Part shown: positions 33,511 through 51,757 of the stretch, in pieces | Layout: each line of letters begins with the position of its first letter | How positions within the stretch are numbered: the stretch's first letter is position 1 | Assembly (NCBI GenBank): GCA_031276295.1 | Contig: JAISNI010000215.1 | Location: 2,285-66,284, forward strand | DNA length: 64,000 nucleotides | From: Treponema sp. | GTDB taxonomy: Bacteria; Spirochaetota; Spirochaetia; Treponematales; Breznakiellaceae | Direction: 5' to 3' | Made by a program: the position numbers and the translations under genes | Notes under the pieces: generated by a model | Told to the model about the DNA's origin: nothing | Databases searched by the model: none | Seen by the model: only the letters and a program-made list of their open reading frames with translations

Positions 33511-33549
33511 GGCGGGATCCCTCAATATGCGGATCGGGGAGTAAAGCTG

Positions 33550-34317: not shown

Positions 34318-34327
34318 GGTATAGAAA

Positions 34328-35116: not shown

Positions 35117-35127
35117 GGGAGTTGTTT

Positions 35128-37092
35128 ATGGCTGTTGATTTCGTCCGGCTTCAGCATCTTATTAAAGAACGGTTGGAGCGGGACAGAACCATACGCACGA
35201 TTGAAGCTGCCGGTCCTACGCTGGAAGCGGCGGTCTCTGAGGCCGCGACTTTGCTTGACGCGCCCATCCGCCGTCTTGAATATGAGGTGCTTGAAAAAGG
35301 GTACGCCGGTTTTTTGGGGAGCGGTAAAAAAAACTGGAAGATACGGGCATACGAACGGGTTTTTGCCGGAAAGGAAGCCGTCCGGAAAGATGCCGGGGAG
35401 GACGAAGAAGCGGAGTTCGTTCCGGTTATTGAGGATAAGGACGGAGAGGCTTTTGTCCATTTAAGTCCTGAAGGGGCATTCCTTAAAGTCGTTCCACCCC
35501 AGGGTAACGGACGGCGGGCTGCCGTAGAGGATGCGGTAAAGCTGCTCCAGACCCGGGATGTTACCGATATTGATAGGGAGAGTGTAGCCCAGGCGATCAA
35601 TGAGATGGCCGGCGCCTATATCAAGGTGGGGAATTTTGAGCATCATTCCTATAACGACAGTTATGTGAGGGTTGATATCGCCGATGAGGAAATGAAAGCC
35701 TACATGACGGTTAATCCTCCGGGCCCCGGCGGCTGCGATATATCGGTGGAGACCTACCTGAGCTACCTGCATAATAACCGTGTGGTGTACGGCATTAAGG
35801 AAGACTTCCTGCGGGAATTCGCCGACAAGCCGGTCTATAAGGAACAGATCCTGGTTGCCGAAGGATCCAAGCCGGTAAACGGCAGGGACGCGTACATACA
35901 GTACAATTTTGAAACCGATCAGAGCAAGGTGCGTTTCAAAGAAGGCAATAACGGGCGGGTCGATTTTAAAGAACTCAACATAATTCAAAACGTAGTAGAG
36001 AATCAGCCTTTGGCAAAGAAGATTGAAGCTGAAACGGGAATAGTCGGCAAGATGGTAACGGGTAAAATAATCCCCGCAAAGGACGGCAGGGATATCGTGC
36101 TGCCCGTGGGCAAAAACGTGCATGTAAGCGATGACGGATCGACCATCTTTGCCGATATTAACGGCCAGGTGGTTGTGGTATCGGGAAAGATCAACGTTGA
36201 ACCGGTTACGACTATTCAGGGCGATGTGAACCTTAAAACAGGGAATATTATCTTCCTGGGAACCGTCATCATTACCGGAAATGTAGAGGACGGTTTTTCC
36301 GTACAGGCCGCGGGCAATATAGAAGTAAACGGAACGGTGGAAAAGGCAAACCTTGACGCCGAAGGGGATATAATTGTCCATCAGGGGATAACCGGTAAAA
36401 ACACCGGGGCCGTCAAGGCCGGCAGGTCAATCTGGGCACGTTTTATTGAGAATACCATAGTTGAATCGGGGAATATGGTGGTTGTTTCCGATGGTATTAT
36501 CAATTCCCAGGTGTCGGCAGAAAAACGTATCATCTGCCAGGGGAAGCGCGCGCATATCGTGGGCGGACATCTGCGCGCCTCCGAGGAGATAAATGCCAAG
36601 ATAATAGGAAGTTCTACCAGCGGGACCGAAACTATCTGCGAGGTAGGTTTTAATCCCAGACGTAAAAAAGAACTGGCCGAACTGATTGAGAAGAAGGCCG
36701 ATATAGAAAAACACCTGGAAGACTTACAGCACAATATACAAACCCTTATCAATATAAAGAAGCAACGCAAATCCCTCCCTGAAGACAAGGAAGCCTATCT
36801 ACAGGAACTTATGGATAAACGGGATGAGATGTTCGGCGATAGGCAGAAGGTAAATGAAGACATAACCTCGTTGAACGAGCAGCTTAACAACATCACCGTC
36901 CGGGGACGGGTTTCCGCTTCCTCAAAAGTGTATCCCGGCGTAAAAGTGATCATCAAGGATTATATCAGCGATGTCCGCGGTGAATACAAGGCGGTTACCT
37001 TTATTCTGGAAGATAAACTTGTAAAGGTAACGAAATACGAAGAACCTGACGAGGAAGTAAAGCGAGGTTTGGATGGCTATACAACCAATTGA
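35128..37092 (+). CDS. FapA-family (DUF342) flagellar-assembly-associated protein
   Basis: Beta-helix-like repeats read GDVNLKTGNIIFLGTVIITGNVEDGFSVQAAGNIEVNGTVEKANLDAEGDIIV, followed by a C-terminal coiled coil. AAGGGAG lies 7 nt before the ATG at 35128. Confidence 0.7.
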   Translation: MAVDFVRLQHLIKERLERDRTIRTIEAAGPTLEAAVSEAATLLDAPIRRLEYEVLEKGYAGFLGSGKKNWKIRAYERVFAGKEAVRKDAGEDEEAEFVPVIEDKDGEAFVHLSPEGAFLKVVPPQGNGRRAAVEDAVKLLQTRDVTDIDRESVAQAINEMAGAYIKVGNFEHHSYNDSYVRVDIADEEMKAYMTVNPPGPGGCDISVETYLSYLHNNRVVYGIKEDFLREFADKPVYKEQILVAEGSKPVNGRDAYIQYNFETDQSKVRFKEGNNGRVDFKELNIIQNVVENQPLAKKIEAETGIVGKMVTGKIIPAKDGRDIVLPVGKNVHVSDDGSTIFADINGQVVVVSGKINVEPVTTIQGDVNLKTGNIIFLGTVIITGNVEDGFSVQAAGNIEVNGTVEKANLDAEGDIIVHQGITGKNTGAVKAGRSIWARFIENTIVESGNMVVVSDGIINSQVSAEKRIICQGKRAHIVGGHLRASEEINAKIIGSSTSGTETICEVGFNPRRKKELAELIEKKADIEKHLEDLQHNIQTLINIKKQRKSLPEDKEAYLQELMDKRDEMFGDRQKVNEDITSLNEQLNNITVRGRVSASSKVYPGVKVIIKDYISDVRGEYKAVTFILEDKLVKVTKYEEPDEEVKRGLDGYTTN

Positions 37093-40063: not shown

Positions 40064-42211
40064 CTATACTTTAAAGGAACCGATGGTTTCTTCCATAATT
40101 TGAATGTTCCGGTGGGTATCCTTGGCAAGGTCCAATACCGCTTCGGCGGCCTTGTTCACCTCCTGGGCGCTGGCGCCCATGTCGATAATACCCCTTTGGA
40201 TGGTTTGGACTATGCCGGTAAGCTCGTCCATTTCCTTTTTAACCTCGTTCATCTGGCCGGTCATATCCGCCGACGTGGTCTGCACGCGGGAGGCCGCGGT
40301 CTGGATGGCGTCCAAGGCCTCCTGAATCTGAGCCGAAGCGCCCCGCTGGGCTTCCATAGCCGTATCAATCTTCTCGATAAAGGTATCGGTGGCATTGATC
40401 TGTTCCGATACCGCCAGGAAGGCTTCCCGTGATTTGGAAGAGATCCGTACCGTATCCTGCACCGATTTGGCAATACCGGAAAGCTCCTGTTTGATGGCCT
40501 GGGACTGGGCGCGGGCGTTTTCGGCCAGCCCCCGGATCTCCTCGGCCACAACCGCGAAACCCCGGCCCGCATCTCCCGCGTGGGCGGCTTCGATTGCCGC
40601 GTTCATAGCCAGAAGATTGGTCCGCGAGGCAATCTGGGCGATGATCTGATTGGCTCCCACCAGAGACTGGGACTGGGCGAGGATGCCCCGGATCTGCTCG
40701 TCCACCGCATCTTGCCGTTCTTTTCCTGTATTCGCTACACTCACCAGCGCGCCGAACTGGTCCTTCAACTCCTGTACCGCCGCCCGTACCGCCTGTATCG
40801 TCTCCGCCATCTTCTCTACCGAGGTAAAGGAAGCGCCGACGGCACTGTTCTGTTCCACGATAAGGGAATTAAGCCCTTCCAGCGCGCCCGACGCGTTTAA
40901 CAGCACCCGGTTGGTCCTTTCCAGGGAATGGGTCTGCCCTTGGGTCTGGTCCTTGATGGCCATAGCCGCATCCATGATCCTGGTATTGGCGTTGACGGAC
41001 TCCTCGGACCGGCTCCCCAGATTCTCCCCTATATTCTGCAGAGAGCTTTGTGCGTCCTTGAGCCGTCTTACCAGCCCCCGCAGGGAAGAAATGAAGCCGT
41101 TGATGCTCTTCCTTATAACGGTGATCTCATCGTTCTTTTTTACCGGTATCTGGTAGGTAAAGTCCGCCTCTTTGGAACTTAAATTCTCGGATACGGCCGC
41201 GGTGATGGAGGCGGTAGACTTGAGAGGGGCAATGACGATCCCCCTAATAAGGAAGATAAAGACCGTCAAGAGGATGACCATGCCCCCCAGAATTACGGGG
41301 ATCACCACCCGGTTGATCAGGCCCACGGTCTCCTCCACGGAGGTCATGGGAAGGCTCATGGAGACAATCCCTACACGGGAATCGGAGCCGTCTTTAAGAG
41401 GGAAATGCACCGCGTAATATTCGATTCCCCCTACGGTGTATTCTCCCCGGTAGGTTTCTCCCAGGCCCAGCACCGTATCGATCATCATATCGTGATCCGA
41501 GGAGAGGCTGCCGGTAAAGGGGCTAATCCAGGCTTTCCGGCCCGCGGAAACCTCCGACATCCCCCTGGAACTGTTTCGATGTACAGGGCCCTGGTAGAGG
41601 TCTATTTCGCATTGGGTAAGGGCCTGGAGATCGTTCATAAATTTGTCGGACTGGATGCTGAATTCGATGAAGCCGTACCCTATGACGTTTTCACCTTCAA
41701 AAACAGGAATGGCCGAGATGAGTTCCAAGGTATTGTCCAGGGAATACATCCTGGTAACCCAGTCCCTGTCCTCGGTATAGGAAACAATGGTACGGACGTA
41801 CCGGGCTCCTTCCGATAGGCCGTCCCCGCTGTTGATGACAAGATACCCGTCCTTGTCCACAAGGGCGATACCGTCCACGTCCAGGGCGGAAACCATAGCG
41901 TCAAGCTGGGACTGAAAAGCGCCCTTGTCTCCGGCGGCCAACATGGCGGCGACACCCGCGTCCCCGGCCAGCCATCGGGCTTTTTTCTCCAGCAATTCGG
42001 TCTGCTCGTCAATAAGGCGGTACACCAGGTTGTCTTTTCCGTCTATTCCTGCCTTGAATGAAGCGGCGGAAGTAGAAGACGTAAGGATATTGATCGTGAA
42101 TATAAGGCCGGCTGCAAATATAACAAAACAGACAAAAATCGGCAGCAGCAATTTTACGCTGATGGAATGTATTCTGTCTTTCATACGGTTAGTATACCTA
42201 TTATAATCCAT
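40064..42211 (-). CDS. Methyl-accepting chemotaxis protein with periplasmic Cache-like sensor and HAMP
   Basis: The signalling-domain core reads [34 protein letters not shown]. Two TM segments flank a sensor region of about 270 aa. Confidence 0.9.
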
Positions 42212-42251: not shown

Positions 42252-42279
42252 TTGACAATTTTTTAATACTGAATACATT
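42252..42279 (+). promoter_or_regulatory. Candidate sigma-70 promoter (-35 TTGACA, 16-nt spacer, -10 TACATT)
   Basis: TTGACA lies at 42252-42257 and TACATT at 42274-42279. This placement implies the downstream CDS starts later than the track TTG at 42285. Confidence 0.35.
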
Positions 42280-42284: not shown

Positions 42285-42776
42285 TTGATGTATTATTCAT
42301 TATCAATACGGACCGTGTCGTTGAAGTCTTTTTTTGAGAATCCTCTTTTTTTATCTTCGGTCTCAAGTTGGTTCTTTGCCCAGCTTATCAAGATGCTCAT
42401 TGTGCTTATCGGTTCCCGTAAGAGAAACCCCCGGGAACTTTTGGCAACTATTGCGTGGCGTACCGGGGGTATGCCTTCCAGTCATGCGGCGCTGGTTTCG
42501 GCCATGACTACATCGGTCGGTTTTCAGGAGGGGATAGGTTCAAATTTATTTATGGTTTCTTTGTTTATAACTCTTATCGTATTGAGGGACGCGGTGGGGG
42601 TACGCAGGGCTTCGGGGATTCAGGGGAGGACCCTGAATAACCTTGGCCGGAACGTATCGGAACGTATCGGGATTGATTATCATCCGGTAAAAGAGGTTTA
42701 CGGCCATAAGCCCCTGGAAGTAGCGATGGGTTCTCTCCTGGGTATCTTCATTGCCGCAGCCTATACCTATCTATAA
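42285..42776 (+). CDS. Divergent PAP2-family (DUF212, acid-phosphatase/haloperoxidase-related) membrane protein
   Basis: Motifs: WFFAQLIKMLI, GGMPSSHAALVSAM, and LRDAVGVRR. The real start is probably GTG 42315 or TTG 42321. Confidence 0.7.
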   Translation: MMYYSLSIRTVSLKSFFENPLFLSSVSSWFFAQLIKMLIVLIGSRKRNPRELLATIAWRTGGMPSSHAALVSAMTTSVGFQEGIGSNLFMVSLFITLIVLRDAVGVRRASGIQGRTLNNLGRNVSERIGIDYHPVKEVYGHKPLEVAMGSLLGIFIAAAYTYL

Positions 42777-42784: not shown

Positions 42785-44398
42785 ATGTCCTATAGGAATT
42801 CCGCTCTGCTTTCGGTGTTTTTCTCTTTGGGGTTGGGGATCCCACTGTGCTGCCTTTTTTGGGCTTTTAATGTGCCCGATTTTTCCCCTGTTTACCTTGA
42901 AATCCGCGTGGAGGAATCCTTTTCCGACCGGCTTGTCCGCGATCTTCTGGCCTCGGACGAGGTTGTCCAAGCCGCGGGAATAGAGAAACCGGAGGAAAGC
43001 GTCATCTCGGAATCCAACCAGTGGGTTTTTTTCGATGATTTTGGGAATATTAAACGCATTCCTCTGGATCAATACGGAGAGGGGCTTGAACCCTTTGATC
43101 CCCGGAATGACGGCTATGCGGACAAGCTCCGTTCCTTTTTTGTCCACGACGGCCTGCGCAGGTTTTTCTTCCCCTTTACGCCGGATTTTTCAGGGTTCGC
43201 CTTCAAAAATCTGAAGAAAGCCCTCGCGTCTTCCCTGAAGGATATCCCTTTTTCCCTTGTTTTTCTGGGGAAACAGGAAACCGTCTTCTGGTATCTGTTG
43301 ATATTTGCGGGCTCTCTTTTCCTTACCCTTGCCCTATCGGGGCATCCGCTGCTCTACGCCGCGCTGATCCCCGCGCTTCTCCCCTTTGCCCTTATGAGGG
43401 GCAGGGGGTTCGCCCCCTGTGCGTGCCTGCTGACCTTTTCCGCCCTTCTTCATGAACCTCTGGGGGAATTTTTTACCGGTATGCGTTATAACAAGGACCT
43501 GTCCAGGCCCGGTGTTGCGGCCGACAGATTGGGGGTTTTTAAGACATACTGGATACTCGCCCTGGTGTTCCTGGTGCTTTACTGGTTTCTGATTATTTGG
43601 AATTCCATCGGCATCGCGGCGGGGGGAGCGGTTTTTTTTTGTTTTACGCTGATCTTTTTAAATTGCCTCAAAACCCGGTCGCTACGCGGGAAATCGAGGG
43701 GGCATGTACGGTTTACACCGGTTTTTATCCTGTCCCGCCATCCCTTAAAGCCGGATATATTCCTCCGGTTCCTGCTGCCCTCCATGTTAGGTTTAGGCTT
43801 TCTCCTCTGGTTTCCGCCCCTGCGCGATCTGATTAACCCGATTGACGGTGAAGCCGAAACCGAGGCCGGCACCCTGCTTGAAAGGCTTTATCCCGATGAT
43901 TACCGGGCGCACGCCCTCTACCAGCGTTTCTTTTCATACCTGCCCTTGGGAACGGACGTTGAAATATTTAAGGGAAACGGCGTATCCTCCTCCTACCTCC
44001 GTTACTATACCGGCAGCGACGGCCTTATATCCGGTGCCTACCGCGACGATACGGAGACGTGGGGCACGGCCGCGCTTTGGGGGAATTTCGGCGGAATTGA
44101 GGGCCAAAATACCGCTTTTCCGCCGTTTCCCCTCGCTCCGCTTATGGATTTTTTTACCGAATTTAAGCATACTACAGACGAAAGAACGCGCGGGGAAGCC
44201 GGGCCGGAAAGCGTGCGCCGGAGAGCGGGAAGGACGGTGCGTCCCCGCCAGGAAACTATCGGGAGGGAATGGCGGGACTATGTTCCCTTTTCTCTGCTCT
44301 TGCTGGCAAGCGTTCCCTTTTTATGTACGGCGGTACTGGCATTGGGTAAAAAAGGGAGAAAAATGTTCATATCGAATGATAAGCGGGTCGCCGCATGA
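42785..44398 (+). CDS. Hypothetical 537-aa polytopic membrane protein, translationally coupled to the Rnf-like genes
   Basis: Multiple hydrophobic segments. The stop overlaps the next start (ATGA at 44395-44398). No family recognised. Confidence 0.55.
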   Translation: MSYRNSALLSVFFSLGLGIPLCCLFWAFNVPDFSPVYLEIRVEESFSDRLVRDLLASDEVVQAAGIEKPEESVISESNQWVFFDDFGNIKRIPLDQYGEGLEPFDPRNDGYADKLRSFFVHDGLRRFFFPFTPDFSGFAFKNLKKALASSLKDIPFSLVFLGKQETVFWYLLIFAGSLFLTLALSGHPLLYAALIPALLPFALMRGRGFAPCACLLTFSALLHEPLGEFFTGMRYNKDLSRPGVAADRLGVFKTYWILALVFLVLYWFLIIWNSIGIAAGGAVFFCFTLIFLNCLKTRSLRGKSRGHVRFTPVFILSRHPLKPDIFLRFLLPSMLGLGFLLWFPPLRDLINPIDGEAETEAGTLLERLYPDDYRAHALYQRFFSYLPLGTDVEIFKGNGVSSSYLRYYTGSDGLISGAYRDDTETWGTAALWGNFGGIEGQNTAFPPFPLAPLMDFFTEFKHTTDERTRGEAGPESVRRRAGRTVRPRQETIGREWRDYVPFSLLLLASVPFLCTAVLALGKKGRKMFISNDKRVAA

Positions 44399-45699
44399 AG
44401 GTATACTCATTTCCCCGCGGGGGGATATTGTATGAGGATTCGACGGTTCCTCCCCGGACATCCAGCGTAACTGCCTTTTTACCGGGCCTTTCGGTCATAC
44501 CGCTTGTCCAGCATACCGGCGCGCGGGCCTTACCGGTGGTAGGCGTCGGGGATTACGTCAGGGAGGGTATGCTTATAGGCCGGGGGCAGGGACCGGGATC
44601 CGCCAATATCCACGCGGCGGCCCCCGGCAGGGTAATCAACATGGTCTCCTGGAAGACCGCGGCGGATATTAACAACGAGGCCCTGGTTATACGTCTGGAA
44701 GGCCGTTTTGAAAAACTGGGTAAAAAAGAAGACAGCTTCCGCTGGGAAGGTCTCTCCTCTTTTGAAATAGAGCGGATAATTGCGGATATGGGCATTGTAG
44801 AAATGGAAAGCGGCGGAACCCCCGTTTCGGATATCCTTTCCGCGTTCCGCTCCATTCCCAGACCTGTCAGCGTGGTAGCGCGCTGTGTCTTTGACGACCC
44901 TTGGCTTGCCGCGGACTATGTCCTGTGCCGGGAACGGTTTCAGGCGGTAGTGGAAGGGGCCTTCATTACGGCACGGGCTTCCCGTGCAAACCGCGTTGTA
45001 TTTGCCGTATCCGGGCGGGAAAGGGAACTAGCAGGCGATTTCCTCACGGTTCATCCGCCGGGCGGTATTGAAGTTTCTACCGTGCTGGTGGGTTCCCGTT
45101 ACCCCCAGCGGAACCGCCGCGAACTGGAGTTGGTTCTCCGTATGTATGAAAAGAAAGAGGAACTCAGTTTGGGTGCCCTGCTTATTTTGGGACCGGCAAC
45201 CCTTGCGGCGCTTCATGATGCGGTAAAGCTGAACAAGCCTATACTGTACCGTTATGTGTCGGTAGGAGGTTCGGCGGTCAAGACCCCCCAGGTTATGAAG
45301 GTGAGGATTGGAACCCGCATCGGGGAGGTCTTTGCCGAATGCGGGGGCTTTATTGATAAGCCTAAGCGTATCGCTACCGGCTCCCCCCTCCTTGGCTGGA
45401 CGGTGGTCGATCTGGACGAGCCTATAATCAAAACCAGTTTTGCCGTTTTCGCCCTGCTGGAGAAGCAGGTGGGCGGAGGCCCGCGCCGGAGCTGTATAGG
45501 CTGCGGCGAATGCAGGAGGGTCTGTCCGGTGGGGCTTGATCCGGAAGAACTCTACAAATGGGCAAAATCCGCCGAAACCCCGGATGCAGTGCAGGGAAGG
45601 GCGTCCGAATGCCACGGCTGCTGCTGTTGCGAAGCGGTCTGCCCGTCCAGGCTCCCCCTGGGAAAGGTCATTCTCGATTCCGCCCTGAGGGAGAAGTAA
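44395..45699 (+). CDS. rnfC: RnfC-like protein (divergent; two 4Fe-4S ferredoxin motifs, nucleotide/flavin site not evident)
   Basis: The N-terminus reads FPRGGI...IPLVQHTGA...VGDYVREGMLIG...ANIHAAAPGRV, and the middle reads LYRYVSVGGSAVKTPQVMKVRIGTRIGEV. The ferredoxin motifs are CIGCGECRRVCP and CHGCCCCEAVCP. Confidence 0.7.
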   Translation: MKVYSFPRGGILYEDSTVPPRTSSVTAFLPGLSVIPLVQHTGARALPVVGVGDYVREGMLIGRGQGPGSANIHAAAPGRVINMVSWKTAADINNEALVIRLEGRFEKLGKKEDSFRWEGLSSFEIERIIADMGIVEMESGGTPVSDILSAFRSIPRPVSVVARCVFDDPWLAADYVLCRERFQAVVEGAFITARASRANRVVFAVSGRERELAGDFLTVHPPGGIEVSTVLVGSRYPQRNRRELELVLRMYEKKEELSLGALLILGPATLAALHDAVKLNKPILYRYVSVGGSAVKTPQVMKVRIGTRIGEVFAECGGFIDKPKRIATGSPLLGWTVVDLDEPIIKTSFAVFALLEKQVGGGPRRSCIGCGECRRVCPVGLDPEELYKWAKSAETPDAVQGRASECHGCCCCEAVCPSRLPLGKVILDSALREK

Positions 45700-46763
45700 T
45701 GCCGGAGAACTACGGACGCCGCTACCAGAGCCCCCAGGTGAATCTTTCCCGTTCAACCAATTTCAGAATGTGGGCGGTAAGTTTTTGCGCGGGCCTTGCC
45801 ATCATCCAGTCCGGCCTGGGCGATTCATTTTCTTCCCTGCTTCTGGCCTTATCATCCGTTCTTGCCGCGGTACTGACGGAACTTTTCCTCTTTTACCGTA
45901 CCGAGGAAATTGAAAGCCTGAAGGACGGCAGCGCCGTGGCGTCCGCCCTGGTGTTCTCCCTGCTCTTGCCCAATACCATGCCCCCTGTATACGCGGTAAT
46001 GGGAGCCGTCTTTGCAATGGCCGTTGTAAAGCACAGCTTTGGGGGCCTGGGGGCCAACTGGCTTAATCCGGCCGTAGGAGCCTGGCTCTTTGTCCGGTTT
46101 TCCTGGCCCCAGGCTTTTTTTAAGGCGCTGGAGGGCTCCCCGCTGCTGAACGGTATCCGGGCGGGGGAAGGGCTGCTCTCCGGTACGGCCGGCGGCCTTG
46201 ATACCGCCATACGTTCTTTTCTCAATAATATGCTCTTCAACACGTTTGGAGCCGTACTGCCGGGCGGTTATATAGACCTCTTTCAGTCATCCTCCCCCGG
46301 TATTATTGCCGACAGGGGGGTGCTGGGGCTTCTGCTTGGAAGCCTGTTTATCATATCTTCCCAGGCGGGCCGTACTTGGGCGTCGCTGGCATACCTGGTC
46401 GTTTTCGGATTGGTAACACGAATCGCCGGCGCGCTTGTACCGGGCGGCCGGTTCTGGCAGGGGGATGTTCTGTTGTATCTTCTTTCCGGGGGGACGTTGG
46501 CGGCGGCGTTTATCCTTATTTCGGATACCGTAAGTTCTCCCAAGTCAAGAGCGGGGATACTGGCGGCGGCGGCTCTGTCGGGTTTTTTCAGCGGCCTTTT
46601 CCGCTGTTTGGGCAGGGAACCTTACGGGGCAATTTATGCGGTGGGCTTGCTTAACGCATTCCTTCCCCTGATACGGAAAATTGAAAACAGGCTGCTCTAC
46701 GAAAAACGGATGCCGGGAACGGCGGCGGAAAAGCGTGTAAAGGCTAAGGACGGGCCGGCATGA
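45699..46763 (+). CDS. rnfD: RnfD/NqrB-like membrane protein (divergent)
   Basis: The start overlaps the rnfC stop (TAATG). SSPGIIADRGVLGLLLGSLFII and LISDTVSSPKSRAGILAAAALSG resemble conserved RnfD blocks. Confidence 0.7.
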   Translation: MPENYGRRYQSPQVNLSRSTNFRMWAVSFCAGLAIIQSGLGDSFSSLLLALSSVLAAVLTELFLFYRTEEIESLKDGSAVASALVFSLLLPNTMPPVYAVMGAVFAMAVVKHSFGGLGANWLNPAVGAWLFVRFSWPQAFFKALEGSPLLNGIRAGEGLLSGTAGGLDTAIRSFLNNMLFNTFGAVLPGGYIDLFQSSSPGIIADRGVLGLLLGSLFIISSQAGRTWASLAYLVVFGLVTRIAGALVPGGRFWQGDVLLYLLSGGTLAAAFILISDTVSSPKSRAGILAAAALSGFFSGLFRCLGREPYGAIYAVGLLNAFLPLIRKIENRLLYEKRMPGTAAEKRVKAKDGPA

Positions 46764-47236
46764 CAGATAAGAACCGGGCACCTGTTTCGGCAAAGGATAT
46801 TACGCTTATTGCGGCATGGATAGGAGGGCTTGTTCTTCTGGGCGCTCTGCTGTGGCTTCCCACCCAGACGGTCCGGGACCGGGCGTTTCAGAATGCGGTA
46901 AATCAGGTTTTAGAGCGGCGGGAAACCGAATTCCGCCTGGAATCCCGTATTCCTTTCAATTCCCTCAATTCAGGACAGAAGCGGTTGGGAACCTGGTTTA
47001 GACTGCTCGATTCTGAAAAGAGAGGGCTTGTCTTTAGTATAATGAACGGCGGCATCCTCTTTCCCTGTATGGCCGTTGTTACCGCCGACGGTTTTGTGGA
47101 AATAGTAATCTTTTTAAACCCCGAGACCCTTTCCGGAACCATACCGGAGGGGCTTGTAAACCGGTATGTCCTGCGTATAGAGAAAAATACCAAAGAAAGG
47201 GTGAAAACACCCGCGGATCGGAGAGGAGAACTATGA
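46760..47236 (+). CDS. rnfG: Short single-TM protein in the RnfG position (assignment positional; FMN-binding motif not seen)
   Basis: 158 aa with N-terminal TM IAAWIGGLVLLGALLWL. ATGA overlaps occur on both sides. VVTADGFVEIVIFLNPET weakly recalls RnfG. Confidence 0.4.
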   Translation: MTDKNRAPVSAKDITLIAAWIGGLVLLGALLWLPTQTVRDRAFQNAVNQVLERRETEFRLESRIPFNSLNSGQKRLGTWFRLLDSEKRGLVFSIMNGGILFPCMAVVTADGFVEIVIFLNPETLSGTIPEGLVNRYVLRIEKNTKERVKTPADRRGEL

Positions 47237-47934
47237 GTCAGATTTATGGGGATTCCGCGGGAACTCCTGAAGGAAATACCGCGAAGAATTCCGCGGTAAG
47301 TCAGTATTACAGGACCCATATCATGTGGGGCGTTCATTCGCCGCTTGCCGGTCTTTTCTGCGGGGGGCTTATAGCTATGGCGTCGGCACGGTTAGCCTAT
47401 GCGCTTACCGTTGCCGGGGCCCTGTTCTGGGTGTACGGACTTTCCACACTGGTTTTCATGGTATCAAAACCTGTTTTACCCCAAAAAGGCCTGAACCCGA
47501 TACTCATCTTTTTAACATCCCTTATAGGCGGTTTCTATCTTTTCCTGCTCTGGTTTCCGAATCCTCTCTTGGTTTCAGGAACGGTATGTATGATCCTCCT
47601 GGTTCCTTGTTCCTGCATCGCATCCGGTATCTTTGAACGGGTCAAATCCTGTGATCCGGGGGAAGCGGTTTTACGTGCATGCCGGGAAGCGCTCGTCATT
47701 GCCCTTTTGATGACGGGGCTGGCCTTGATACGGGAACCCGTAGGCTGCGCGTCTCTCAGTCTTCCCGGAGGTGTTCAGGGTATAATTGAGGTATTCGGCG
47801 CAAAGGACGGGGCGGGGTTCTTCCCGGTACGGATACTTGCAGGTTCTGCGGGGGCTTTCATCCTTATGGGCTACGGCCTGTCGGTATACGCCCGTTTCAG
47901 GAAGCCCCTGTTTCCCGCCGGGGAGCTTGAATGA
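47233..47934 (+). CDS. rnfE: RnfE/NqrD-like membrane protein (divergent)
   Basis: Motifs: SPLAGLFCGG, LLVPCSCIASGIFER, and LALIREPVG. Confidence 0.6.
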   Translation: MSQIYGDSAGTPEGNTAKNSAVSQYYRTHIMWGVHSPLAGLFCGGLIAMASARLAYALTVAGALFWVYGLSTLVFMVSKPVLPQKGLNPILIFLTSLIGGFYLFLLWFPNPLLVSGTVCMILLVPCSCIASGIFERVKSCDPGEAVLRACREALVIALLMTGLALIREPVGCASLSLPGGVQGIIEVFGAKDGAGFFPVRILAGSAGAFILMGYGLSVYARFRKPLFPAGELE

Positions 47935-48500
47935 GCACTTTTGCCTGTTTTGGGATAATGGCCGGTCTTTCCTGGAATCTGCTGCTGCAATTCGGCCTGG
48001 GTATGGCGGGGGGACTTAAAAAGAATTCCCTGCCGGTGCTGCAACTGCTCTGCCTTTTCCTCTCGGTTCTGGCGCTCTTTACGGTGTTTTTCTCGCTATC
48101 GGCCCTGGCCAATTTGGGTTTCTTTGAATACATCCTGTATTACCCCCTTTCCTGTCTTTCCTGTCTGGGCCTGGAAACCGTCTTCTCTCCGTTACTTCCA
48201 AAGAAAATCGGGGAGAAAACCTTTAATTGCCTTTCCGCATACGACGGGCTTGCCGTGGCCGCTCTTTTTCTTACACGGCATCTGGCGGAAACGCTTGCGG
48301 AAGGGTTGTTCCTCTCTTTCCATTTTTCGCTGGGCGTTCTGATCGGTCTTGTCATCCTTGCCGAGATTAGGAGGCGGTCCTCGGTGGAGAAAGTTCCCCG
48401 GTTTCTGAGGGGTAAACCCCTGCTGCTTATCTCGATGGGGTTTCTGTCCTTAGTATTTACCGCCGCGGCAGGAATATTCTATAGAATACTGGAATTTTGA
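47931..48500 (+). CDS. rnfA: RnfA/NqrE-like membrane protein (divergent)
   Basis: Motifs: NLLLQFGLGMAGG, YPLSCLSCLG, and VPRFLRGKPLLLISMGFLSLVF. Confidence 0.6.
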   Translation: MSTFACFGIMAGLSWNLLLQFGLGMAGGLKKNSLPVLQLLCLFLSVLALFTVFFSLSALANLGFFEYILYYPLSCLSCLGLETVFSPLLPKKIGEKTFNCLSAYDGLAVAALFLTRHLAETLAEGLFLSFHFSLGVLIGLVILAEIRRRSSVEKVPRFLRGKPLLLISMGFLSLVFTAAAGIFYRILEF

Positions 48501-48614
48501 TCCGCGTTGAAGACCGCAGGCGGCCTTATTCAATTGGATTTTATAGGCCGGCCCTAATCTGTTTGTCTATATTGGACGAAAATCTAATGAGTTATCGATA
48601 CCAATGAGTTATTT

Positions 48615-50471
48615 ATGGGGAAAATAAGTTTAATTTTGGGTTCTCATAGACACCTTCCGTATGGTTCTTCCGCCGATGAATTTGAAGAACTGTACAGGCG
48701 GGAATTGAAACCGTTTATTACAACTCTCTACAGATTTCCCCGTATCAGCCTTGTCCTGCACTATTCCGGCGTTCTCTTGCAGTGGATTGAGCGGCGGCAT
48801 CCTGAGCTTATCATGCTGCTTAAGAATCTGGTCGTCCGTAAGCAGGTGGAATTCTTAGGCGGCGGATTCTACGAGCCGCTGCTGCCCCTTATCCCGCTTG
48901 CCGACAAGCTCGGTCAGATTGAGATGATGACTACTTATCTCCGTAAGACCTTCGGGAAGCGGCCCCAGGGTTGCCTGCTGCCCTGTAATGTCTGGGAACA
49001 GAACCTGACCGGCCCTCTCCACGCCTGCGGTATGGTTTACACCTTCCTGAACGAAGCTCTTTTTAGCCACGTTCAGGGTGAAAGCCTGCCCTACTACAGC
49101 CCCTGCATTACCGAGGATCAGGGGAAGGTTATCACGGTATTCCCGGTGTATTCGGAACTCGGCAGAAAACTAAGCGTCAGGGATCCTTCAGCCGCCCTGG
49201 AAAAGCTCCTGGGGGAACAGGAAAAAATATTCACGGTCTTTACCGATAATTTTTTCGATAAGGATGCAAACGAACTTTTCTACAACGATTTTTTTGAAGC
49301 GCTCTCCGTATCGGATCCCCGCATAGAATTCATCACCCCCGGAAGGATCTTCCGTCAGTTAAAGAATCCTGAAAAGCGTTATTTCCCCAGTTTTATTGAG
49401 AGAAAGGGCGGGGAATGTTTTCTGCCCAGGAAATTCCTTACCGATTGTTCCGAAGCTAACGGTATTTATGCCAAAATGATGTATACGCATATACTGATCA
49501 ATCAGCTTCGCGGGGATAAGGCGCGGAAGAGCGCCGCCCGCAGGGAACTGTGGAAAGCCCAGGGCTGCGATATGTTTTATCCCGGTAACGAGGACGCGCC
49601 GCTTATCGGATGCCAGGCCAAGCGGAAGGCTGTGTACCGGGCGCTGCTCGAAGCTGAAAAGATAAGCAGGGAAACCGCGTTTATCCCGTCGCTTGCGGCC
49701 TTTGATTTCAACCTGAACGGCAGGACCGCGTACATCTTTCAGGACGAGCTTATCAACTGTTACATAGATTCGGCAGGGGCCGTGTTCGAGCTTGACTATC
49801 TTCCGCGAAACTGGAATTATCTTGATACCTATACCGCGTACAAGGACGGCGGAAAGAACAAGCGCCGCGCGTTTGCCGATATTCTTGCGCCCCCCGAGGC
49901 TGCCCTTGAGCATATCCTGCAAGGCGATTTCCGGGGCTTCCGGCGTTGCGGCTGCGAGCACTACGAAAACGGCGGAACGTCGGGGAGCCGCGAAAAGGTG
50001 AATTTTACGCTGCCTGCGCGGATCCTCCCCTCGGGAGAAGGGAGTTTCGACGCGGTTGAAATAGAAAAAACCTTCTGCCTGGAACATGATTCGCTTGCCG
50101 TAACCTATGTGTTGAACAACAGGCACAGCAGACCTGAACGTTTTAAATTTATGCCGAGCATCGATCTTTCCTTTCCGGGCGACGGCAAGACGTTCCTTGA
50201 GGTTTTCCGCGTGCGGGAAGATTCACGGGAAGAAATTCCCGGTGCGGGGGTATTCCCCGAAACCGGCGCGGTGGAATTTCGGGATATAAAGAACGAGGTC
50301 AGCGTAGGGCTTGCCGCGGACAGGCCCTTTGAAGCCTGGATATATCCGGTGAAAACGGGGGACGAGTATCAGTCAACCTGCCTTCTACCGGTGATGGCGG
50401 TAGACTTACAGCCGGGAGAAAACTGGAAAACGGAATTCAGGTTGAGGATAGTTTCGGATGAGAACCGTTAG
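48615..50471 (+). CDS. Glycoside hydrolase family 57 protein (alpha-amylase/4-alpha-glucanotransferase-type)
   Basis: The N-terminus reads LILGSHRHLPYG...LHYSGVLLQWI...VEFLGGGFYEPLLPLIP. 618 aa. Confidence 0.75.
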   Translation: MGKISLILGSHRHLPYGSSADEFEELYRRELKPFITTLYRFPRISLVLHYSGVLLQWIERRHPELIMLLKNLVVRKQVEFLGGGFYEPLLPLIPLADKLGQIEMMTTYLRKTFGKRPQGCLLPCNVWEQNLTGPLHACGMVYTFLNEALFSHVQGESLPYYSPCITEDQGKVITVFPVYSELGRKLSVRDPSAALEKLLGEQEKIFTVFTDNFFDKDANELFYNDFFEALSVSDPRIEFITPGRIFRQLKNPEKRYFPSFIERKGGECFLPRKFLTDCSEANGIYAKMMYTHILINQLRGDKARKSAARRELWKAQGCDMFYPGNEDAPLIGCQAKRKAVYRALLEAEKISRETAFIPSLAAFDFNLNGRTAYIFQDELINCYIDSAGAVFELDYLPRNWNYLDTYTAYKDGGKNKRRAFADILAPPEAALEHILQGDFRGFRRCGCEHYENGGTSGSREKVNFTLPARILPSGEGSFDAVEIEKTFCLEHDSLAVTYVLNNRHSRPERFKFMPSIDLSFPGDGKTFLEVFRVREDSREEIPGAGVFPETGAVEFRDIKNEVSVGLAADRPFEAWIYPVKTGDEYQSTCLLPVMAVDLQPGENWKTEFRLRIVSDENR

Positions 50472-50548: not shown

Positions 50549-51757
50549 ATGCAATACAGGACGGATAAGAAATCGGGAAACAGGCTTTCGGTACTGGGAT
50601 TAGGCTGTATGCGTTTCCCCAGGAATATGGGGGCCATAGATATGAAGAAGACCGAAACGCTGGTAATGAGGGCAATAGAGGGCGGGATTAACTATTTTGA
50701 TACAGCCTATATTTACCCGGGCAGCGAGGAAGCTCTGGGGGCTGTTCTGGCAAAGAACGGCGTGAGGGAGAAGGTGTTCATTGCCGCGAAACTGCCCATA
50801 ATGCTGGTAAAGGAGCGGGCGGATATCGACAGATTCTTCAATAAAGAACTGGAAAGGCTCAGAACGGATTATATCGACTACTACCTCATGCACCAGCTTA
50901 CCGATACGGGATTCTGGGGCAGGCTGAAGGATCTGGGCATTGAAGAATGGATTGCGGCACAGAAGAAAAGCGGACGGATACGGCAGGCGGGGTTTTCTTT
51001 CCATGGCACACGGGACGAATTCCTTAAACTGGTAGATGTTTACCCCTGGGACTTCTGCCAGATACAGTACAACTATTCGGATGAAAACTTCCAGGCAGGG
51101 CTGGCCGGTCTTAAAAAAGCATCGGCGGTCATGCCGGTTATCATCATGGAGCCGCTCCTGGGGGGCAAGCTCATCGAGGGCCTTCCCCGTGAAGCGGCGG
51201 CTATTTTCAAAAAAGCCAATCCCCACGCCGGCCTTGCCGCCTGGGGCCTCAACTGGGTATGGAACCATACCGATGTAACCCTCCTCCTCTCCGGCATGAG
51301 CACTGAAGCCCAGCTTGAGGAGAACCTCCGCCTGGCGGACACTTCGGCGCCGGGGATGCTCGGCCCCCTGGAACTGGATGTCTACCGTCAGGTTCTGAAA
51401 GTATTCAATAAATTCTACAAAATACACTGTACCGGCTGTAATTACTGTATGCCCTGCCCCCACGGCGTCAACATACCCGGTTGCTTTGCGGGTTACAACC
51501 TTTCCTACTCAATGGGTTATATCGTGGGCCTCAAACATTATATAACCAGTATTGCCGCGGTATCCGAAAAAATAGCGGGCGCCGGCCTCTGCGTTAAATG
51601 CGGGAAATGCGAAAAGATCTGCCCGCAGCGCATCCCCATCATCCGCAGTCTTGAAGATGTAGTAAAACGCATGGAGCCTTTTTGGTACCGATGGGTGATA
51701 GGCGCCGTCCGTTTTTTCCTTTTGGGTAATAATATAAGGAAAAAAAACTTGAAATGA
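50549..51757 (+). CDS. Aldo/keto reductase with C-terminal 4Fe-4S ferredoxin-type domain
   Basis: Motifs: LSVLGLGCMRFP, INYFDTAYIYPGSEE, CTGCNYCMPCP, and CVKCGKCEKICP. Confidence 0.85.
   Translation: MQYRTDKKSGNRLSVLGLGCMRFPRNMGAIDMKKTETLVMRAIEGGINYFDTAYIYPGSEEALGAVLAKNGVREKVFIAAKLPIMLVKERADIDRFFNKELERLRTDYIDYYLMHQLTDTGFWGRLKDLGIEEWIAAQKKSGRIRQAGFSFHGTRDEFLKLVDVYPWDFCQIQYNYSDENFQAGLAGLKKASAVMPVIIMEPLLGGKLIEGLPREAAAIFKKANPHAGLAAWGLNWVWNHTDVTLLLSGMSTEAQLEENLRLADTSAPGMLGPLELDVYRQVLKVFNKFYKIHCTGCNYCMPCPHGVNIPGCFAGYNLSYSMGYIVGLKHYITSIAAVSEKIAGAGLCVKCGKCEKICPQRIPIIRSLEDVVKRMEPFWYRWVIGAVRFFLLGNNIRKKNLK

What the first reader, a model, noticed from the sequence alone, without database searches (positions are those of the whole stretch)
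42785..48500. Translationally coupled six-gene cluster: unknown 537-aa membrane protein plus a divergent, RnfB-less Rnf-like module lacking obvious flavin/NADH motifs
All junctions overlap: ATGA at 44395-44398, 46760-46763, 47233-47236 and 47931-47934, and TAATG at 45697-45701. This implies a single stoichiometric unit. Genes 2-6 read as RnfC, RnfD, a short protein in the RnfG position, RnfE and RnfA, which is the canonical C-D-G-E-A order. They depart from canonical Rnf in five ways.
1. No RnfB-type gene follows; the next gene, 114 bp later, is GH57.
2. Where RnfC has the GxGGAGFPT nucleotide/FMN loop, this protein reads GIVEMESGGTPVS. The downstream ECEP-type block reads FDDP, although both 4Fe-4S motifs are intact (CIGCGECRRVCP and CHGCCCCEAVCP, with two extra Cys).
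3. I cannot find an S/T-G-A-T flavinylation motif in the RnfD-like protein (closest is LSGTAGG). I find none in the 158-aa RnfG-position protein, which is also shorter than typical RnfG.
4. The RnfA-like protein has GLGM where GLCP is expected, while the second Cys blocks (PCSC, LSCLSC) persist.
5. The lead gene encodes a large polytopic membrane protein of no family I recognise.
Together this suggests a remodelled Rnf/Nqr-derived membrane complex with a new subunit and altered or lost cofactor chemistry, rather than a standard ferredoxin:NAD+ oxidoreductase.
Basis: partly seen in the sequence, partly recalled or inferred. Interest (0 to 1): 0.65.

Follow-up and report, generated by a model that had tools for sequence, protein, structure and literature searches.

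The report
Cofactor-stripped Rnf-like membrane gene cluster
This is the termite-gut treponeme copy of a spirochaete-wide, highly diverged second "Rnf" membrane complex (the same cluster proposed, untested, to be the syphilis bacterium's ion pump) that has lost most of the redox-cofactor sites a real Rnf pump needs, so its function is open.

Summary
The six overlapping genes are real and conserved. With a DUF212/PAP2-like gene upstream and a GH57 gene downstream they form a fixed eight-gene cluster. It occurs in about 70 Breznakiellaceae (termite-gut treponeme) loci, 80 gut/rumen Treponema loci and Treponema phagedenis.

Genes 2-6 are true but very diverged homologues of RnfC, D, G, E and A. 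Family alignments against solved Rnf/Nqr structures show what is lost:
- the RnfC FMN/NADH loop
- the RnfD and RnfG flavinylation threonines
- conserved ligation of the membrane [2Fe-2S] cluster (three of four RnfA/RnfE ligand positions replaced, the fourth variable)

Retained are both RnfC [4Fe-4S] motifs and, in the termite clade, both RnfD riboflavin-pocket residues.

The 537-aa lead protein has no family or fold match but is homologous across clades.

RnfB-lessness is a secondary, recurrent loss. The sister clade carries a short RnfB-like gene exactly in the 114-bp gap.

Related Breznakiellaceae genomes also carry a canonical rnfCDGEAB, so this is a paralogous second module. By gene order it corresponds to the "noncanonical Rnf" tp0147-tp0153 of T. 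pallidum (Deka 2015).

The mechanism is unknown; a canonical ferredoxin:NAD+ pump is unlikely.

The parts
42252..42279 (+). sigma-70-like promoter match (TTGACA-16-TACATT) just upstream of the DUF212 gene; a possible operon start
   Evidence: This is a consensus match only. 11 sites were found in the region against 6.2 expected.
42285..42776 (+). DUF212 / divergent PAP2-family membrane protein (163 aa), ending 8 bp upstream of the lead gene; conserved first gene of the cluster
   Evidence: PF02681 hit, E = 1.3e-40. It is present directly upstream of X in 81/83 termite-clade loci, in most of the Treponema loci long enough to show it, and in T. phagedenis.
42785..44398 (+). X: 537-aa polytopic membrane protein of no known family. 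The model shows an N-terminal TM helix, an alpha/beta domain at about 35-165, a helical bundle at about 167-350, a second soluble region, and C-terminal helices at 491-527.
   Evidence: No Pfam or NCBIfam hit. 132 homologues, all from termite-gut Treponema/Breznakiellaceae. AlphaFold model pLDDT 78, pTM 0.72. No significant PDB fold match; the best is an RND/MmpL/SecDF type at E = 0.03, TM 0.26. Homologous to the X-position protein of gut/rumen Treponema (hhalign prob 99.1, E = 1.5e-18) and, through that profile, of T. phagedenis (prob 99.0). The N-terminus aligns with the family, so the 537-aa ATG start is preferred over the 508-aa database call.
44395..45699 (+). RnfC-like subunit (434 aa). 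It keeps the RnfC_N, SLBB and 2x[4Fe-4S] domains, but the FMN/NADH loop and the ECEP block are replaced.
   Evidence: TIGR01945 scores 220.8 bits, below the 245.95 cut-off. The family profile matches 7zc6_C at E = 1.6e-67 over the full length. GMGGATFP aligns to EMEesgrP, and ECEPYL to VFDDPW. The 8 Fe-S Cys are invariant in 56/56 sequences, and C164 and C178 are family-specific invariants.
45699..46763 (+). RnfD/NqrB-like subunit (354 aa) without the flavinylation threonine but with the riboflavin-pocket residues
   Evidence: PF03116 hit, E = 1.9e-52. TIGR01946 scores 126, below the 207 cut-off. The profile matches 9eri_D at E = 4e-32 in two blocks, and the segment that holds T156 in A. woodii is unaligned and variable. 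The FGGLGxNWxNPA motif is invariant. The N123 equivalent is N in 68/68 sequences, and the D249 equivalent is D in 42 and E in 26.
46760..47236 (+). G': 158-aa protein in the RnfG position, with one TM helix plus a small beta-sheet domain. It has no FMN_bind signature and no conserved S/T-G-A-T motif.
   Evidence: 0/55 family members hit PF04205 or any consistent Pfam family. No PDB sequence hit. AlphaFold model pLDDT 86. The top six PDB fold hits are RnfG and NqrC chains, but they are weak (E = 0.02-0.13, TM about 0.3). At least 289 unannotated homologues exist.
47233..47934 (+). E': RnfE/NqrD-like membrane subunit (233 aa) lacking conserved [2Fe-2S] ligands
   Evidence: 23/62 family members hit PF02508 Rnf-Nqr, best E = 7e-8. 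The profile matches 7zc6_E at E = 2e-3. The C25 equivalent is mostly Gly. The C108 equivalent is Cys in 42/64 termite-clade sequences in the combined alignment (40/62 in A5) and is mostly Ser, Val or Thr in the sister clade.
47931..48500 (+). A': RnfA/NqrE-like membrane subunit (189 aa) with both canonical Cys ligand positions replaced
   Evidence: The profile matches 7xk3_E at 1.8e-11 and 9eri_A at 2.4e-11 over the full length. The C25 position is R/K/G (Ala in the window), and the C113 position is Gly in 66/69 sequences. TIGR01943 scores 32.8, below the 229.3 cut-off.
48501..48614 (.). 114-bp gap with no RnfB-type gene; the site where the sister clade carries a ~200-aa RnfB-like gene
   Evidence: tblastn with the sister-clade B' protein finds nothing in the window or in 83 termite-clade loci. 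No CxxCxxCxxxC motif occurs in this gap in 60 loci. B' is present in 48 of the 80 Treponema loci, and its profile matches RnfB 7zc6_B at E = 1.9e-29.
48615..50471 (+). GH57 glycoside hydrolase / glucanotransferase-type enzyme (618 aa); conserved last gene of the cluster
   Evidence: PF03065 hit, E = 3.5e-27, plus the AmyA C-terminal domain. It lies downstream of A' in 64 termite-clade loci, overlapping or nearly touching A' (gap of 10 nt or less) in 21 of 60. It is also present in the Treponema loci and in T. phagedenis.

Best explanation
What it is (shown). The window carries the Breznakiellaceae version of a conserved cluster shared by Breznakiellaceae and Treponema: DUF212(PAP2-like) - X - RnfC-like - RnfD-like - RnfG-like - RnfE-like - RnfA-like - (RnfB-like, lost here) - GH57. 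It is a deeply diverged paralogue of the Rnf ferredoxin:NAD+ pump. In related Breznakiellaceae genomes it sits beside a normal rnfCDGEAB. By gene order and count it corresponds to the cluster called the 'noncanonical Rnf' of T. pallidum (tp0147-tp0153).

How it works (inferred). It cannot run the canonical electron path Fd -> RnfB -> [2Fe-2S](A/E) -> FMN(G) -> FMN(D) -> riboflavin(D) -> [4Fe-4S]x2(C) -> FMN(C) -> NAD+. The ligands or motifs for the A/E cluster, for both covalent FMNs and for the FMN/NADH site of RnfC are gone, and RnfB is absent here. Three things remain under strict conservation: the two [4Fe-4S] clusters of the C-like head, the riboflavin pocket of the D-like subunit in the termite clade, and the D/A'/E'/G' membrane scaffold.

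My best guess is a membrane complex in which a cytoplasmic Fe-S head is reduced directly by ferredoxin or flavodoxin. That head (possibly together with a non-covalent riboflavin in the D-like subunit) reports or gates a conformational or ion-conducting cycle of the A'/E'/D core. X would be a lineage-specific partner facing the periplasm. On this view it is not a ferredoxin:NAD+ oxidoreductase.
For: Identity and synteny:
- The eight-gene order holds in about 70 termite-clade loci, with overlapping junctions.
- The same order holds in 80 gut/rumen Treponema loci and in the T. phagedenis complete genome.
- The X families are homologous across clades.
- In an NJ tree the C-like family is sister to a large degenerate Treponema clade, whose members carry Treponemataceae, Gallitreponema and T. 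phagedenis names.

Homology to Rnf subunits.

Lost ligands, using A. woodii numbering and the mutational data in PMC11889175:
- RnfC loop
- RnfD T156 region
- no FMN_bind signature in G'
- RnfA C25 and C113 and RnfE C25 replaced, and RnfE C108 only partly retained

Retained features:
- 8/8 Fe-S Cys invariant in the C-like subunit
- RnfD N123 equivalent invariant, D249 equivalent D/E

Paralogy: Hollandina grandis has Holrf_01093-01100 (this cluster) as well as Holrf_01644-01649 (rnfBAEGDC). A second genome has Holit_00596-00603 as well as Holit_01925-01930.

T. pallidum link: tp0147-tp0153 are co-transcribed. TP0152 is annotated RnfC and TP0151 RnfD, and TP0148-0150 are TM proteins. No FMN-binding motif was found in them.
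Against: - No T. pallidum sequence could be fetched. That orthology rests on gene order, gene count and the T. phagedenis locus.
- The G' to RnfG link is only a weak fold match (E = 0.02, TM about 0.3).
- Motif loss does not prove cofactor loss. Flavins could bind non-covalently or through cryptic sites, as Deka et al. propose, and Cys at the RnfE C108 position persists in about two thirds of the termite clade.
- In the sister clade the D249 equivalent aligns to Trp, so the riboflavin pocket may not be general.
- The gating/sensing mechanism is pure inference. No experiment, complex model or expression data were available.
- In three loci (L045, L059, L070) DUF212-X occurs without the Rnf-like genes downstream, so X may not be an obligate subunit.
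Confidence: 0.55

Rival explanations
1. It is still a real redox-driven Na+/H+ pump, a 'noncanonical Rnf'. It would take electrons from ferredoxin or flavodoxin and use non-covalently bound or cryptically attached flavins, as proposed for T. pallidum by the Norgard laboratory.
For: - The full subunit set C-D-G-E-A is kept, translationally coupled and conserved in more than 150 loci.
- The Fe-S motifs of the C-like subunit and the riboflavin-pocket residues of the D-like subunit are conserved.
- An RnfB-like ferredoxin subunit is present in the sister clade.
- T. pallidum has a flavin transferase/FAD pyrophosphatase and apparently no other Rnf.
Against: - In A. woodii, mutating the A/E [2Fe-2S] cysteines, RnfG T185 or the riboflavin ligands abolishes both activity and growth, and reduction of the [2Fe-2S] cluster is the step that drives Na+ pumping. 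Here three of those four Cys positions are replaced and the fourth is not conserved, and the flavinylation motifs are absent family-wide.
- The NADH/FMN loop of RnfC is replaced.
- Relatives keep a separate canonical Rnf, which argues that the two modules do different jobs.
Confidence: 0.2
2. The Rnf-derived membrane core has become a redox-independent ion conduit. It would use the ion-motive force to power X, a periplasm-facing membrane protein, in an envelope or glycan-related task linked to the PAP2-like phosphatase and GH57. The analogy is MotAB/ExbBD, or SecDF/RND proteins, which are driven by ion flow.
For: - X, DUF212 and GH57 are as tightly syntenic as the Rnf-like genes across both clades.
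- The only weak fold resemblances of X are to PMF-driven RND/MmpL/SecDF proteins and to FtsX/MacB-type proteins.
- The electron path across the membrane is broken.
Against: - The fold matches for X are not significant (E >= 0.03, TM <= 0.27).
- This idea does not explain the invariant Fe-S head of the C-like subunit.
- GH57 looks like a cytoplasmic glycogen or maltodextrin enzyme, with no signal peptide in the sequence.
- There is no direct evidence that X contacts the module.
Confidence: 0.15
3. It is a decaying, functionless remnant of a duplicated rnf operon.
For: Many cofactor ligands are lost, sequence divergence is high, all scores fall below the curated Rnf cut-offs, and the RnfB-like gene has been lost recurrently.
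Against: - Intact ORFs with conserved 4-nt overlaps occur in about 150 loci from clades only 30-40% identical.
- Invariant motifs are shared across the family.
- The cluster is retained in the reduced T. pallidum genome and is reported to be transcribed there.
Confidence: 0.03

Closest known systems
Rnf complex (RnfCDGEAB; Na+/H+-translocating ferredoxin:NAD+ oxidoreductase), e.g. A. woodii 9ERI, C. tetanomorphum 7ZC6, A. vinelandii 8AHX
   Same: It shares the gene order C-D-G-E-A. The C-, D- and A-like proteins align over their full length to solved chains. E' belongs to the Rnf-Nqr Pfam family, and the G' fold is closest to RnfG/NqrC. The 2x[4Fe-4S] motifs of RnfC and the riboflavin-pocket residues of RnfD are conserved.
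   Different: - There is no RnfB in this lineage.
- The RnfC FMN/NADH loop and the ECEP block are replaced.
- RnfD and RnfG have no flavinylation Thr.
- Three of the four [2Fe-2S] Cys ligand positions of RnfA/RnfE are replaced and the fourth (RnfE C108) is variable.
- There is an extra 537-aa membrane protein, and a DUF212 gene and a GH57 gene are fixed in the cluster.
- All scores fall below the curated NCBIfam cut-offs.
- In relatives it coexists with a true Rnf.
'Noncanonical Rnf' (Rnf_Tp) of Treponema pallidum, tp0147-tp0153 (Deka et al. 2015, mBio, PMC4436053)
   Same: There are seven co-transcribed genes. RnfC and RnfD are annotated, followed by three small TM proteins, one of them RnfE-like, with one gene before and one gene after. 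[quoted passage not shown] The T. phagedenis locus fetched here has exactly the window's order: X-C-D-G'-E'-A'-GH57 with DUF212 upstream.
   Different: The published view treats it as a flavin-based redox pump and tentatively calls TP0153 'RnfB'. Here the protein in that position (X) is a large polytopic protein with no Fe-S motif, and the A/E cluster ligands are also missing. Breznakiellaceae additionally have a canonical Rnf, which T. pallidum is not reported to have.
Na+-NQR (NqrABCDEF)
   Same: The membrane core is homologous. The A' profile's best PDB hit is NqrE 7xk3_E. The D-like profile matches NqrB, and the C-like protein has weak NQRA_SLBB similarity. NqrA, like this C-like protein, lacks the FMN/NADH site of RnfC (my own knowledge of the family, not tested here).
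   Different: There is no NqrF. The C-like protein keeps the two [4Fe-4S] motifs that NqrA lacks. There are no flavinylation sites and no [2Fe-2S] ligands. The scores against the curated Nqr equivalog models returned (NqrA, NqrB, NqrE) are tiny.
Two-subunit 'Nqr/Rnf-like' complexes (NqrB/RnfD-like fused to an NAD-binding domain, plus a flavinylated NqrC/RnfG-like subunit; PMC11334425)
   Same: This is another reduced derivative whose RnfD-like subunit lacks the flavinylation site while keeping a non-covalent flavin pocket.
   Different: Those complexes have only two subunits, a PF00175 NAD-binding domain and a flavinylated extracytosolic subunit. The present cluster keeps C, A and E homologues, has no NAD-binding domain and has no flavinylation motif at all.

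Membership tests
Rnf complex (ferredoxin:NAD+ oxidoreductase) | RnfB polyferredoxin subunit encoded with the complex | tested here: not met
   No such gene lies in the 114-bp gap or anywhere else in the loci. An RnfB-like gene is present at this position in the sister clade only.
Rnf complex (ferredoxin:NAD+ oxidoreductase) | RnfC FMN/NADH site (G-x-GGA-x-FP loop and ECEP block) | tested here: not met
   The profile alignment to 7zc6_C and 9eri_C puts IVEMEesgrP and VFDDPW at these positions. The replacements are invariant within the family.
Rnf complex (ferredoxin:NAD+ oxidoreductase) | RnfC two [4Fe-4S] CxxCxxCxxxCP motifs | tested here: met
   All 8 Cys are invariant in 56/56 family sequences and in the sister clade.
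Rnf complex (ferredoxin:NAD+ oxidoreductase) | RnfD covalent-FMN threonine (A. woodii T156; S/T-G-A-T) | tested here: not met
   This segment is unaligned to 9eri_D and 7zc6_D. In the 8ahx_D alignment, MTGAT faces non-conserved residues. Family columns 147-173 are variable and gapped.
Rnf complex (ferredoxin:NAD+ oxidoreductase) | RnfD riboflavin ligands (A. woodii N123, D249) | tested here: met
   In the termite clade the N123 equivalent is N in 68/68 sequences and the D249 equivalent is D in 42 and E in 26. In the sister clade the N is kept but the second position aligns to W.
Rnf complex (ferredoxin:NAD+ oxidoreductase) | RnfG FMN_bind domain with flavinylated Thr (A. woodii T185) | tested here: not met
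   0/55 members hit PF04205. There is no PDB sequence hit and no conserved S/T-G-A-T motif (consensus). Only a weak fold resemblance to RnfG/NqrC exists.
Rnf complex (ferredoxin:NAD+ oxidoreductase) | Four Cys of RnfA/RnfE ligating the membrane [2Fe-2S] cluster (A: C25, C113; E: C25, C108) | tested here: not met
   The RnfA C25 position is R/K/G and the C113 position is Gly. The RnfE C25 position is Gly, and the C108 position is Cys in only 42/64 termite-clade sequences and is mostly Ser, Val or Thr in the sister clade.
Rnf complex (ferredoxin:NAD+ oxidoreductase) | Scores above curated NCBIfam cut-offs for rnfC, rnfD, rnfA, rnfE and rnfG | tested here: not met
   rnfC scores 220.8 against a cut-off of 245.95, rnfD 126 against 207.05, and rnfA 32.8 against 229.3. 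There is no hit for the E- and G-position proteins.
Rnf complex (ferredoxin:NAD+ oxidoreductase) | Ferredoxin-dependent NAD+ reduction coupled to ion translocation | not testable with these tools
   This requires biochemistry on the purified complex.
Treponemal 'noncanonical Rnf' cluster (tp0147-tp0153 type) | Gene order X - RnfC-like - RnfD-like - three small TM proteins - GH57, transcribed together | tested here: met
   The window, about 70 Breznakiellaceae loci, 80 Treponema loci and T. phagedenis CP042816.1 all show this order. The description of tp0147-tp0153 is in PMC4436053. That TP0147 is the GH57 gene rests on my memory of the annotation, not on a test.
Treponemal 'noncanonical Rnf' cluster (tp0147-tp0153 type) | Sequence orthology to T. 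pallidum TP0148-TP0153 | not tested
   No T. pallidum sequence could be reached. The nearest proxy is the T. phagedenis RnfC-like protein (P0337/P0438), which falls in the sister clade, together with the transitive hhalign links for X.
Treponemal 'noncanonical Rnf' cluster (tp0147-tp0153 type) | No recognisable NqrC/RnfG-type flavinylation motif in any subunit | tested here: met
   The same was stated for T. pallidum.
Na+-NQR | NqrF (FAD/2Fe-2S NADH dehydrogenase subunit) and NqrA in the operon | tested here: not met
   No such gene is in the cluster. The C-like protein scores 31 bits on an NqrA model whose cut-off is 450.
Two-subunit Nqr/Rnf-like complex | RnfD-like domain fused to a PF00175 NAD-binding domain, plus a flavinylated NqrC-like partner | tested here: not met
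   The D-like protein carries only PF03116. G' has no flavinylation motif. The definition is taken from PMC11334425.

The most novel reading that the evidence does not exclude
The whole treponemal 'Rnf-like' cluster, including the one in T. pallidum, is not a respiratory redox pump. It would be a new kind of machine built from an Rnf chassis. An Fe-S head (plus perhaps riboflavin) senses the ferredoxin/flavodoxin redox state and gates ion flow, or ion flow through the A'/E'/D core powers the new subunit X at the periplasmic face. If so, the chemiosmotic model for syphilis-spirochaete energy conservation would need another source of ion-motive force.
Probability: 0.2. Interest if true: 0.8.

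Novelty: new variant of a known kind. Interest (0 to 1): 0.55.

Why it matters
Rnf and Nqr are the textbook redox-driven ion pumps of anaerobes. Recent structures show that the membrane [2Fe-2S] cluster and the covalent flavins are the heart of the mechanism. Here a complete paralogous set of subunits has lost those sites, yet it is kept in about 150 loci from two clades of treponemes, next to a normal Rnf where one exists. That makes it a natural experiment in what an Rnf scaffold can do without its electron wire.

There is a practical consequence too. Genome annotations label two or three of these genes rnfC, rnfD and rsxA, so metabolic reconstructions may count this cluster as an Rnf pump. 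The published energy-conservation model for T. pallidum relies on the corresponding cluster being a flavin-based pump.

The unknown 537-aa protein and the DUF212 gene now have a defined, testable genomic partner.

Tried and rejected
- A single-sequence homology search with G' found only 4 close relatives.
- The fold search of the X model against the PDB gave no significant match, so no family is assigned.
- The G' profile had no sequence hit in the PDB.
- The broad alignment A8 was too diverse for a metagenome scan, so a 10-sequence subset (A9) was used instead.
- hhalign of the T. phagedenis X-like and G'-like single sequences against the termite-clade profiles failed. The link for X holds only through the intermediate profile A10.
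- I considered that extra Cys in the C-like protein form a third cluster. C411 and C316 also occur in canonical RnfC sequences, and C410 occurs only in the window among the sequences compared. Only C164 and C178 are family-specific, too few to claim a cluster.
- I considered that the window's LSGTAGG (D-like) or LSGT (G') are cryptic flavinylation sites. Neither is conserved in the family.
- I looked for a canonical Rnf in the window. None is present; the neighbours are flagellar, chemotaxis and housekeeping genes.
- Pseudogene decay was rejected on conservation grounds.

Full report
OBSERVATION

The junctions read ATGA at 44395, 46760, 47233 and 47931, and TAATG at 45697. GH57 follows after 114 bp.

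The overlaps are conserved rather than accidental. In about 70 related loci the median gap at each of the five internal junctions is -4 or -1 nt.

- A DUF212/divergent-PAP2 gene (42285-42776; PF02681, E = 1.3e-40) ends 8 bp before the lead gene. It is preceded by a promoter-like match.
- The GH57 gene lies downstream at 48615-50471.

WHAT THE GENES ARE

Gene 2 is an RnfC homologue.
- TIGR01945 scores 220.8 bits, below its 245.95 cut-off.
- A 56-sequence family profile matches RnfC of C. tetanomorphum (7zc6_C) over the full length at E = 1.6e-67.

Gene 3 is an RnfD/NqrB homologue.
- PF03116 hits at E = 1.9e-52.
- The family profile matches 9eri_D at E = 4e-32.

Gene 6 is an RnfA/NqrE homologue. 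Its profile matches 7xk3_E and 9eri_A over the full length at E of about 2e-11.

Gene 5 is an RnfE/NqrD-type protein.
- 23 of 62 family members hit PF02508.
- The profile matches 7zc6_E at E = 2e-3.

Gene 4 has no sequence match anywhere.
- 0 of 55 members hit FMN_bind.
- The profile has no PDB sequence hit.
- An AlphaFold model (pLDDT 86) shows a long TM helix plus a small sheet. Its six best PDB fold hits are RnfG and NqrC chains, but weakly (E = 0.02-0.13, TM about 0.3).
- I accept it as a reduced RnfG-like subunit with moderate confidence.

The lead protein X has no Pfam or NCBIfam hit.
- It has 132 homologues, all from termite-gut treponemes.
- Its model is decent (pLDDT 78, pTM 0.72), but it has no significant fold match. 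The best hits are RND/MmpL/SecDF proteins at E >= 0.03 and TM 0.26.

COFACTOR SITES

I took the canonical ligands from the A. woodii structure and mutagenesis paper (PMC11889175):
- RnfC binds non-covalent FMN and NADH and carries two [4Fe-4S] clusters.
- RnfD carries FMN on T156 and binds riboflavin through N123 and D249.
- RnfG carries FMN on T185.
- A [2Fe-2S] cluster is held by RnfA C25 and C113 and RnfE C25 and C108.
- Removing any of these abolishes activity, and reduction of the [2Fe-2S] cluster is what drives Na+ pumping.

Mapping the ligands through the profile alignments gives the following.
- The RnfC loop GMGGATFP becomes IVEMEesgrP, and ECEPYL becomes VFDDPW. Both replacements are invariant in the family.
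- All eight Fe-S cysteines of the C-like subunit are invariant.
- The RnfD segment around T156 is unaligned, gapped and variable. The window's LSGTAGG is not conserved.
- The FGGLGxNWxNPA motif of RnfD and the N123 equivalent are invariant. The D249 equivalent is always Asp or Glu in this clade.
- The RnfA C25 position is R/K/G (Ala in the window), and the C113 position is Gly in 66/69 sequences.
- The RnfE C25 position is mostly Gly. The C108 position is Cys in 42/64 sequences here and is mostly Ser, Val or Thr in the sister clade.

So the transmembrane electron wire and the NADH site are gone. What is kept is the Fe-S head and the riboflavin pocket.

DISTRIBUTION AND EVOLUTION

A genome scan with the X family returned 80 loci, all termite-gut Treponema or Breznakiellaceae. 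They include T. primitia ZAS-10, Treponema sp. TIM-1 and the complete genome of Breznakiella homolactica.

Wherever the contig allows, the order is DUF212-X-C-D-G'-E'-A'-GH57. There are two kinds of exception:
- Three loci have DUF212-X followed by unrelated genes (L045, L059, L070).
- Three loci lack GH57.

An exhaustive HMMER search with the C-like protein showed that degenerate RnfC-like proteins are common. Of the full-length representatives among the 150 best hits, 80 of 132 lack both FMN-site motifs. The window's family is sister to a large clade with the motifs GIxNTF and RLFDxDPS. Members of that clade come from Treponemataceae, Gallitreponema and T. phagedenis.

A metagenome scan with that clade gave 80 loci with the same architecture. 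It includes a homologous X (hhalign A1 against A10: prob 99.1, E = 1.5e-18).

These loci have one extra gene between A' and GH57. It encodes a protein of about 200 aa with a TM anchor and a 4Fe-4S dicluster domain. Its profile's best PDB hits are RnfB chains:
- 7zc6_B at E = 1.9e-29
- 9eri_B at E = 5.5e-27

This gene is absent from the window and from all 60 termite-clade loci that span the gap. It is also absent from a few sister-clade loci and from T. phagedenis. There the complete-genome locus reads DUF212-X(487 aa)-C-D-147 aa-195 aa-179 aa-GH57 (X link).

RnfB-lessness is therefore a derived and recurrent state.

RELATION TO THE LITERATURE

Deka et al. 2015 (PMC4436053) describe a co-transcribed tp0147-tp0153 cluster in T. 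pallidum.
- TP0152 is RnfC, TP0151 is RnfD, and TP0149 is RnfE-like.
- TP0148 and TP0150 are TM proteins.
- They note that none has an NqrC/RnfG-type FMN motif, and they propose a 'noncanonical Rnf redox pump'.

Later papers from the same laboratory build the T. pallidum energy model on this proposal. Gene number and order match the T. phagedenis and window clusters. I could not fetch T. pallidum sequences to confirm the match.

The annotation tables of a 2026 study of Breznakiellaceae (PMC13067680) show both systems in each of two genomes.
- Holrf_01093-01100 reads hyp, hyp, rnfC, rnfD, hyp, hyp, rsxA, DUF1926. The last of these is the genome's GH57.
- The same genome also has a canonical rnfBAEGDC at Holrf_01644-01649.
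- The second genome has Holit_00596-00603 and a canonical set at Holit_01925-01930.

This cluster is therefore a paralogous second module. That paper does not discuss it separately from Rnf.

The two-subunit 'Nqr/Rnf-like' complexes of PMC11334425 are a different derivative.

MECHANISM

Shown:
- The subunits are homologous to Rnf subunits.
- The named ligands are lost and the named sites are kept.
- Synteny holds across both clades.
- In relatives the cluster coexists with a true Rnf.

Inferred: the complex cannot carry electrons across the membrane or reduce NAD+ in the canonical way. I think the most likely arrangement has three parts.
- The Fe-S head is reduced directly by ferredoxin or flavodoxin, possibly passing electrons to a non-covalent riboflavin in the D-like subunit.
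- That redox state controls a conformational or ion-conducting cycle of the A'/E'/D core.
- X acts as a lineage-specific partner.

The rivals are:
- a real pump with cryptic cofactors (0.2)
- an ion-motive-force-driven energiser for X and an envelope or glycan process (0.15)
- a functionless remnant (0.03, contradicted by conservation)

VERDICT

This is a new variant of a known kind. It has already been noticed in T. pallidum but never dissected, and annotations routinely label some of its genes rnfC, rnfD and rsxA.

Interest is moderate (0.55). It is not a property of this genome alone and no mechanism is established. Even so, a widespread cofactor-stripped Rnf paralogue bears directly on Rnf/Nqr mechanism and on spirochaete bioenergetics.

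Noticed in passing
L144:13049-13660 and 47 other loci among L084-L163: The sister Treponema clade carries a short RnfB-like gene (TM anchor plus a 4Fe-4S dicluster domain, about 200 aa) between the A-like gene and GH57. It has been lost repeatedly: in all Breznakiellaceae, in T. phagedenis, and in L090, L094, L098 and L106. L098 and L163 keep only partial matches, which may be remnants.
   Followed up: partly
L059:8052-10028, L045, L070: In three termite-clade loci the DUF212-X pair is followed by unrelated genes instead of the Rnf-like genes. In L059 these include a galE-like epimerase, a peptidase and a polyamine ABC transporter. X and DUF212 may therefore form a unit of their own.
   Followed up: partly
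window 42785-42871: The public gene call for the lead protein is 508 aa and starts at a GTG 29 codons downstream. The family alignment supports the upstream ATG (537 aa), which adds the N-terminal transmembrane helix.
   Followed up: yes
window 27720-37092: There is a flagellar export and regulation gene block here: FlhB, FlhA (FHIPEP), an FlhF-like SRP54 GTPase, a MinD/ParA-like ATPase, a sigma-28-type sigma factor and a FapA-domain protein.
   Followed up: no
window 40064-42211 (-): A methyl-accepting chemotaxis protein with a dCache sensor domain is transcribed divergently from the cluster. In other lineages (L001, L002, L144, L165) this upstream position is held by a pseudouridine synthase gene instead.
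   Followed up: no
L002:5078-8231: In one termite-clade lineage, V/A-type ATPase subunit genes (AC39, subunit I, proteolipid c) lie 1-5 kb upstream of the cluster. This could be a bioenergetic neighbourhood or a coincidence.
   Followed up: no
window 45610-45645 (C-like residues 406-417): The second ferredoxin motif reads CHGCCCCEAVCP. Among the sequences compared, the Cys at residue 410 occurs only in the window (Gly in the family consensus). C164 and C178 are invariant Cys specific to the termite-clade family, and their role is unknown.
   Followed up: partly
window 50549-51757: An aldo/keto reductase fused to a C-terminal 4Fe-4S dicluster domain lies directly downstream of GH57.
   Followed up: no
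PMC13067680 supplementary Table S4 (PilKf_00858-00860, PilKf_00336-00338, PilKf_01325): In the Pillotina corrugata MAG the rnf annotations are scattered over several places: hyp-rnfC-rnfD, rnfD-rnfG-rnfE, and a lone rnfB. The hyp-rnfC-rnfD group may be this degenerate cluster cut by a contig end, so the paper's statement that the Rnf complex is present may partly rest on the paralogue.
   Followed up: no
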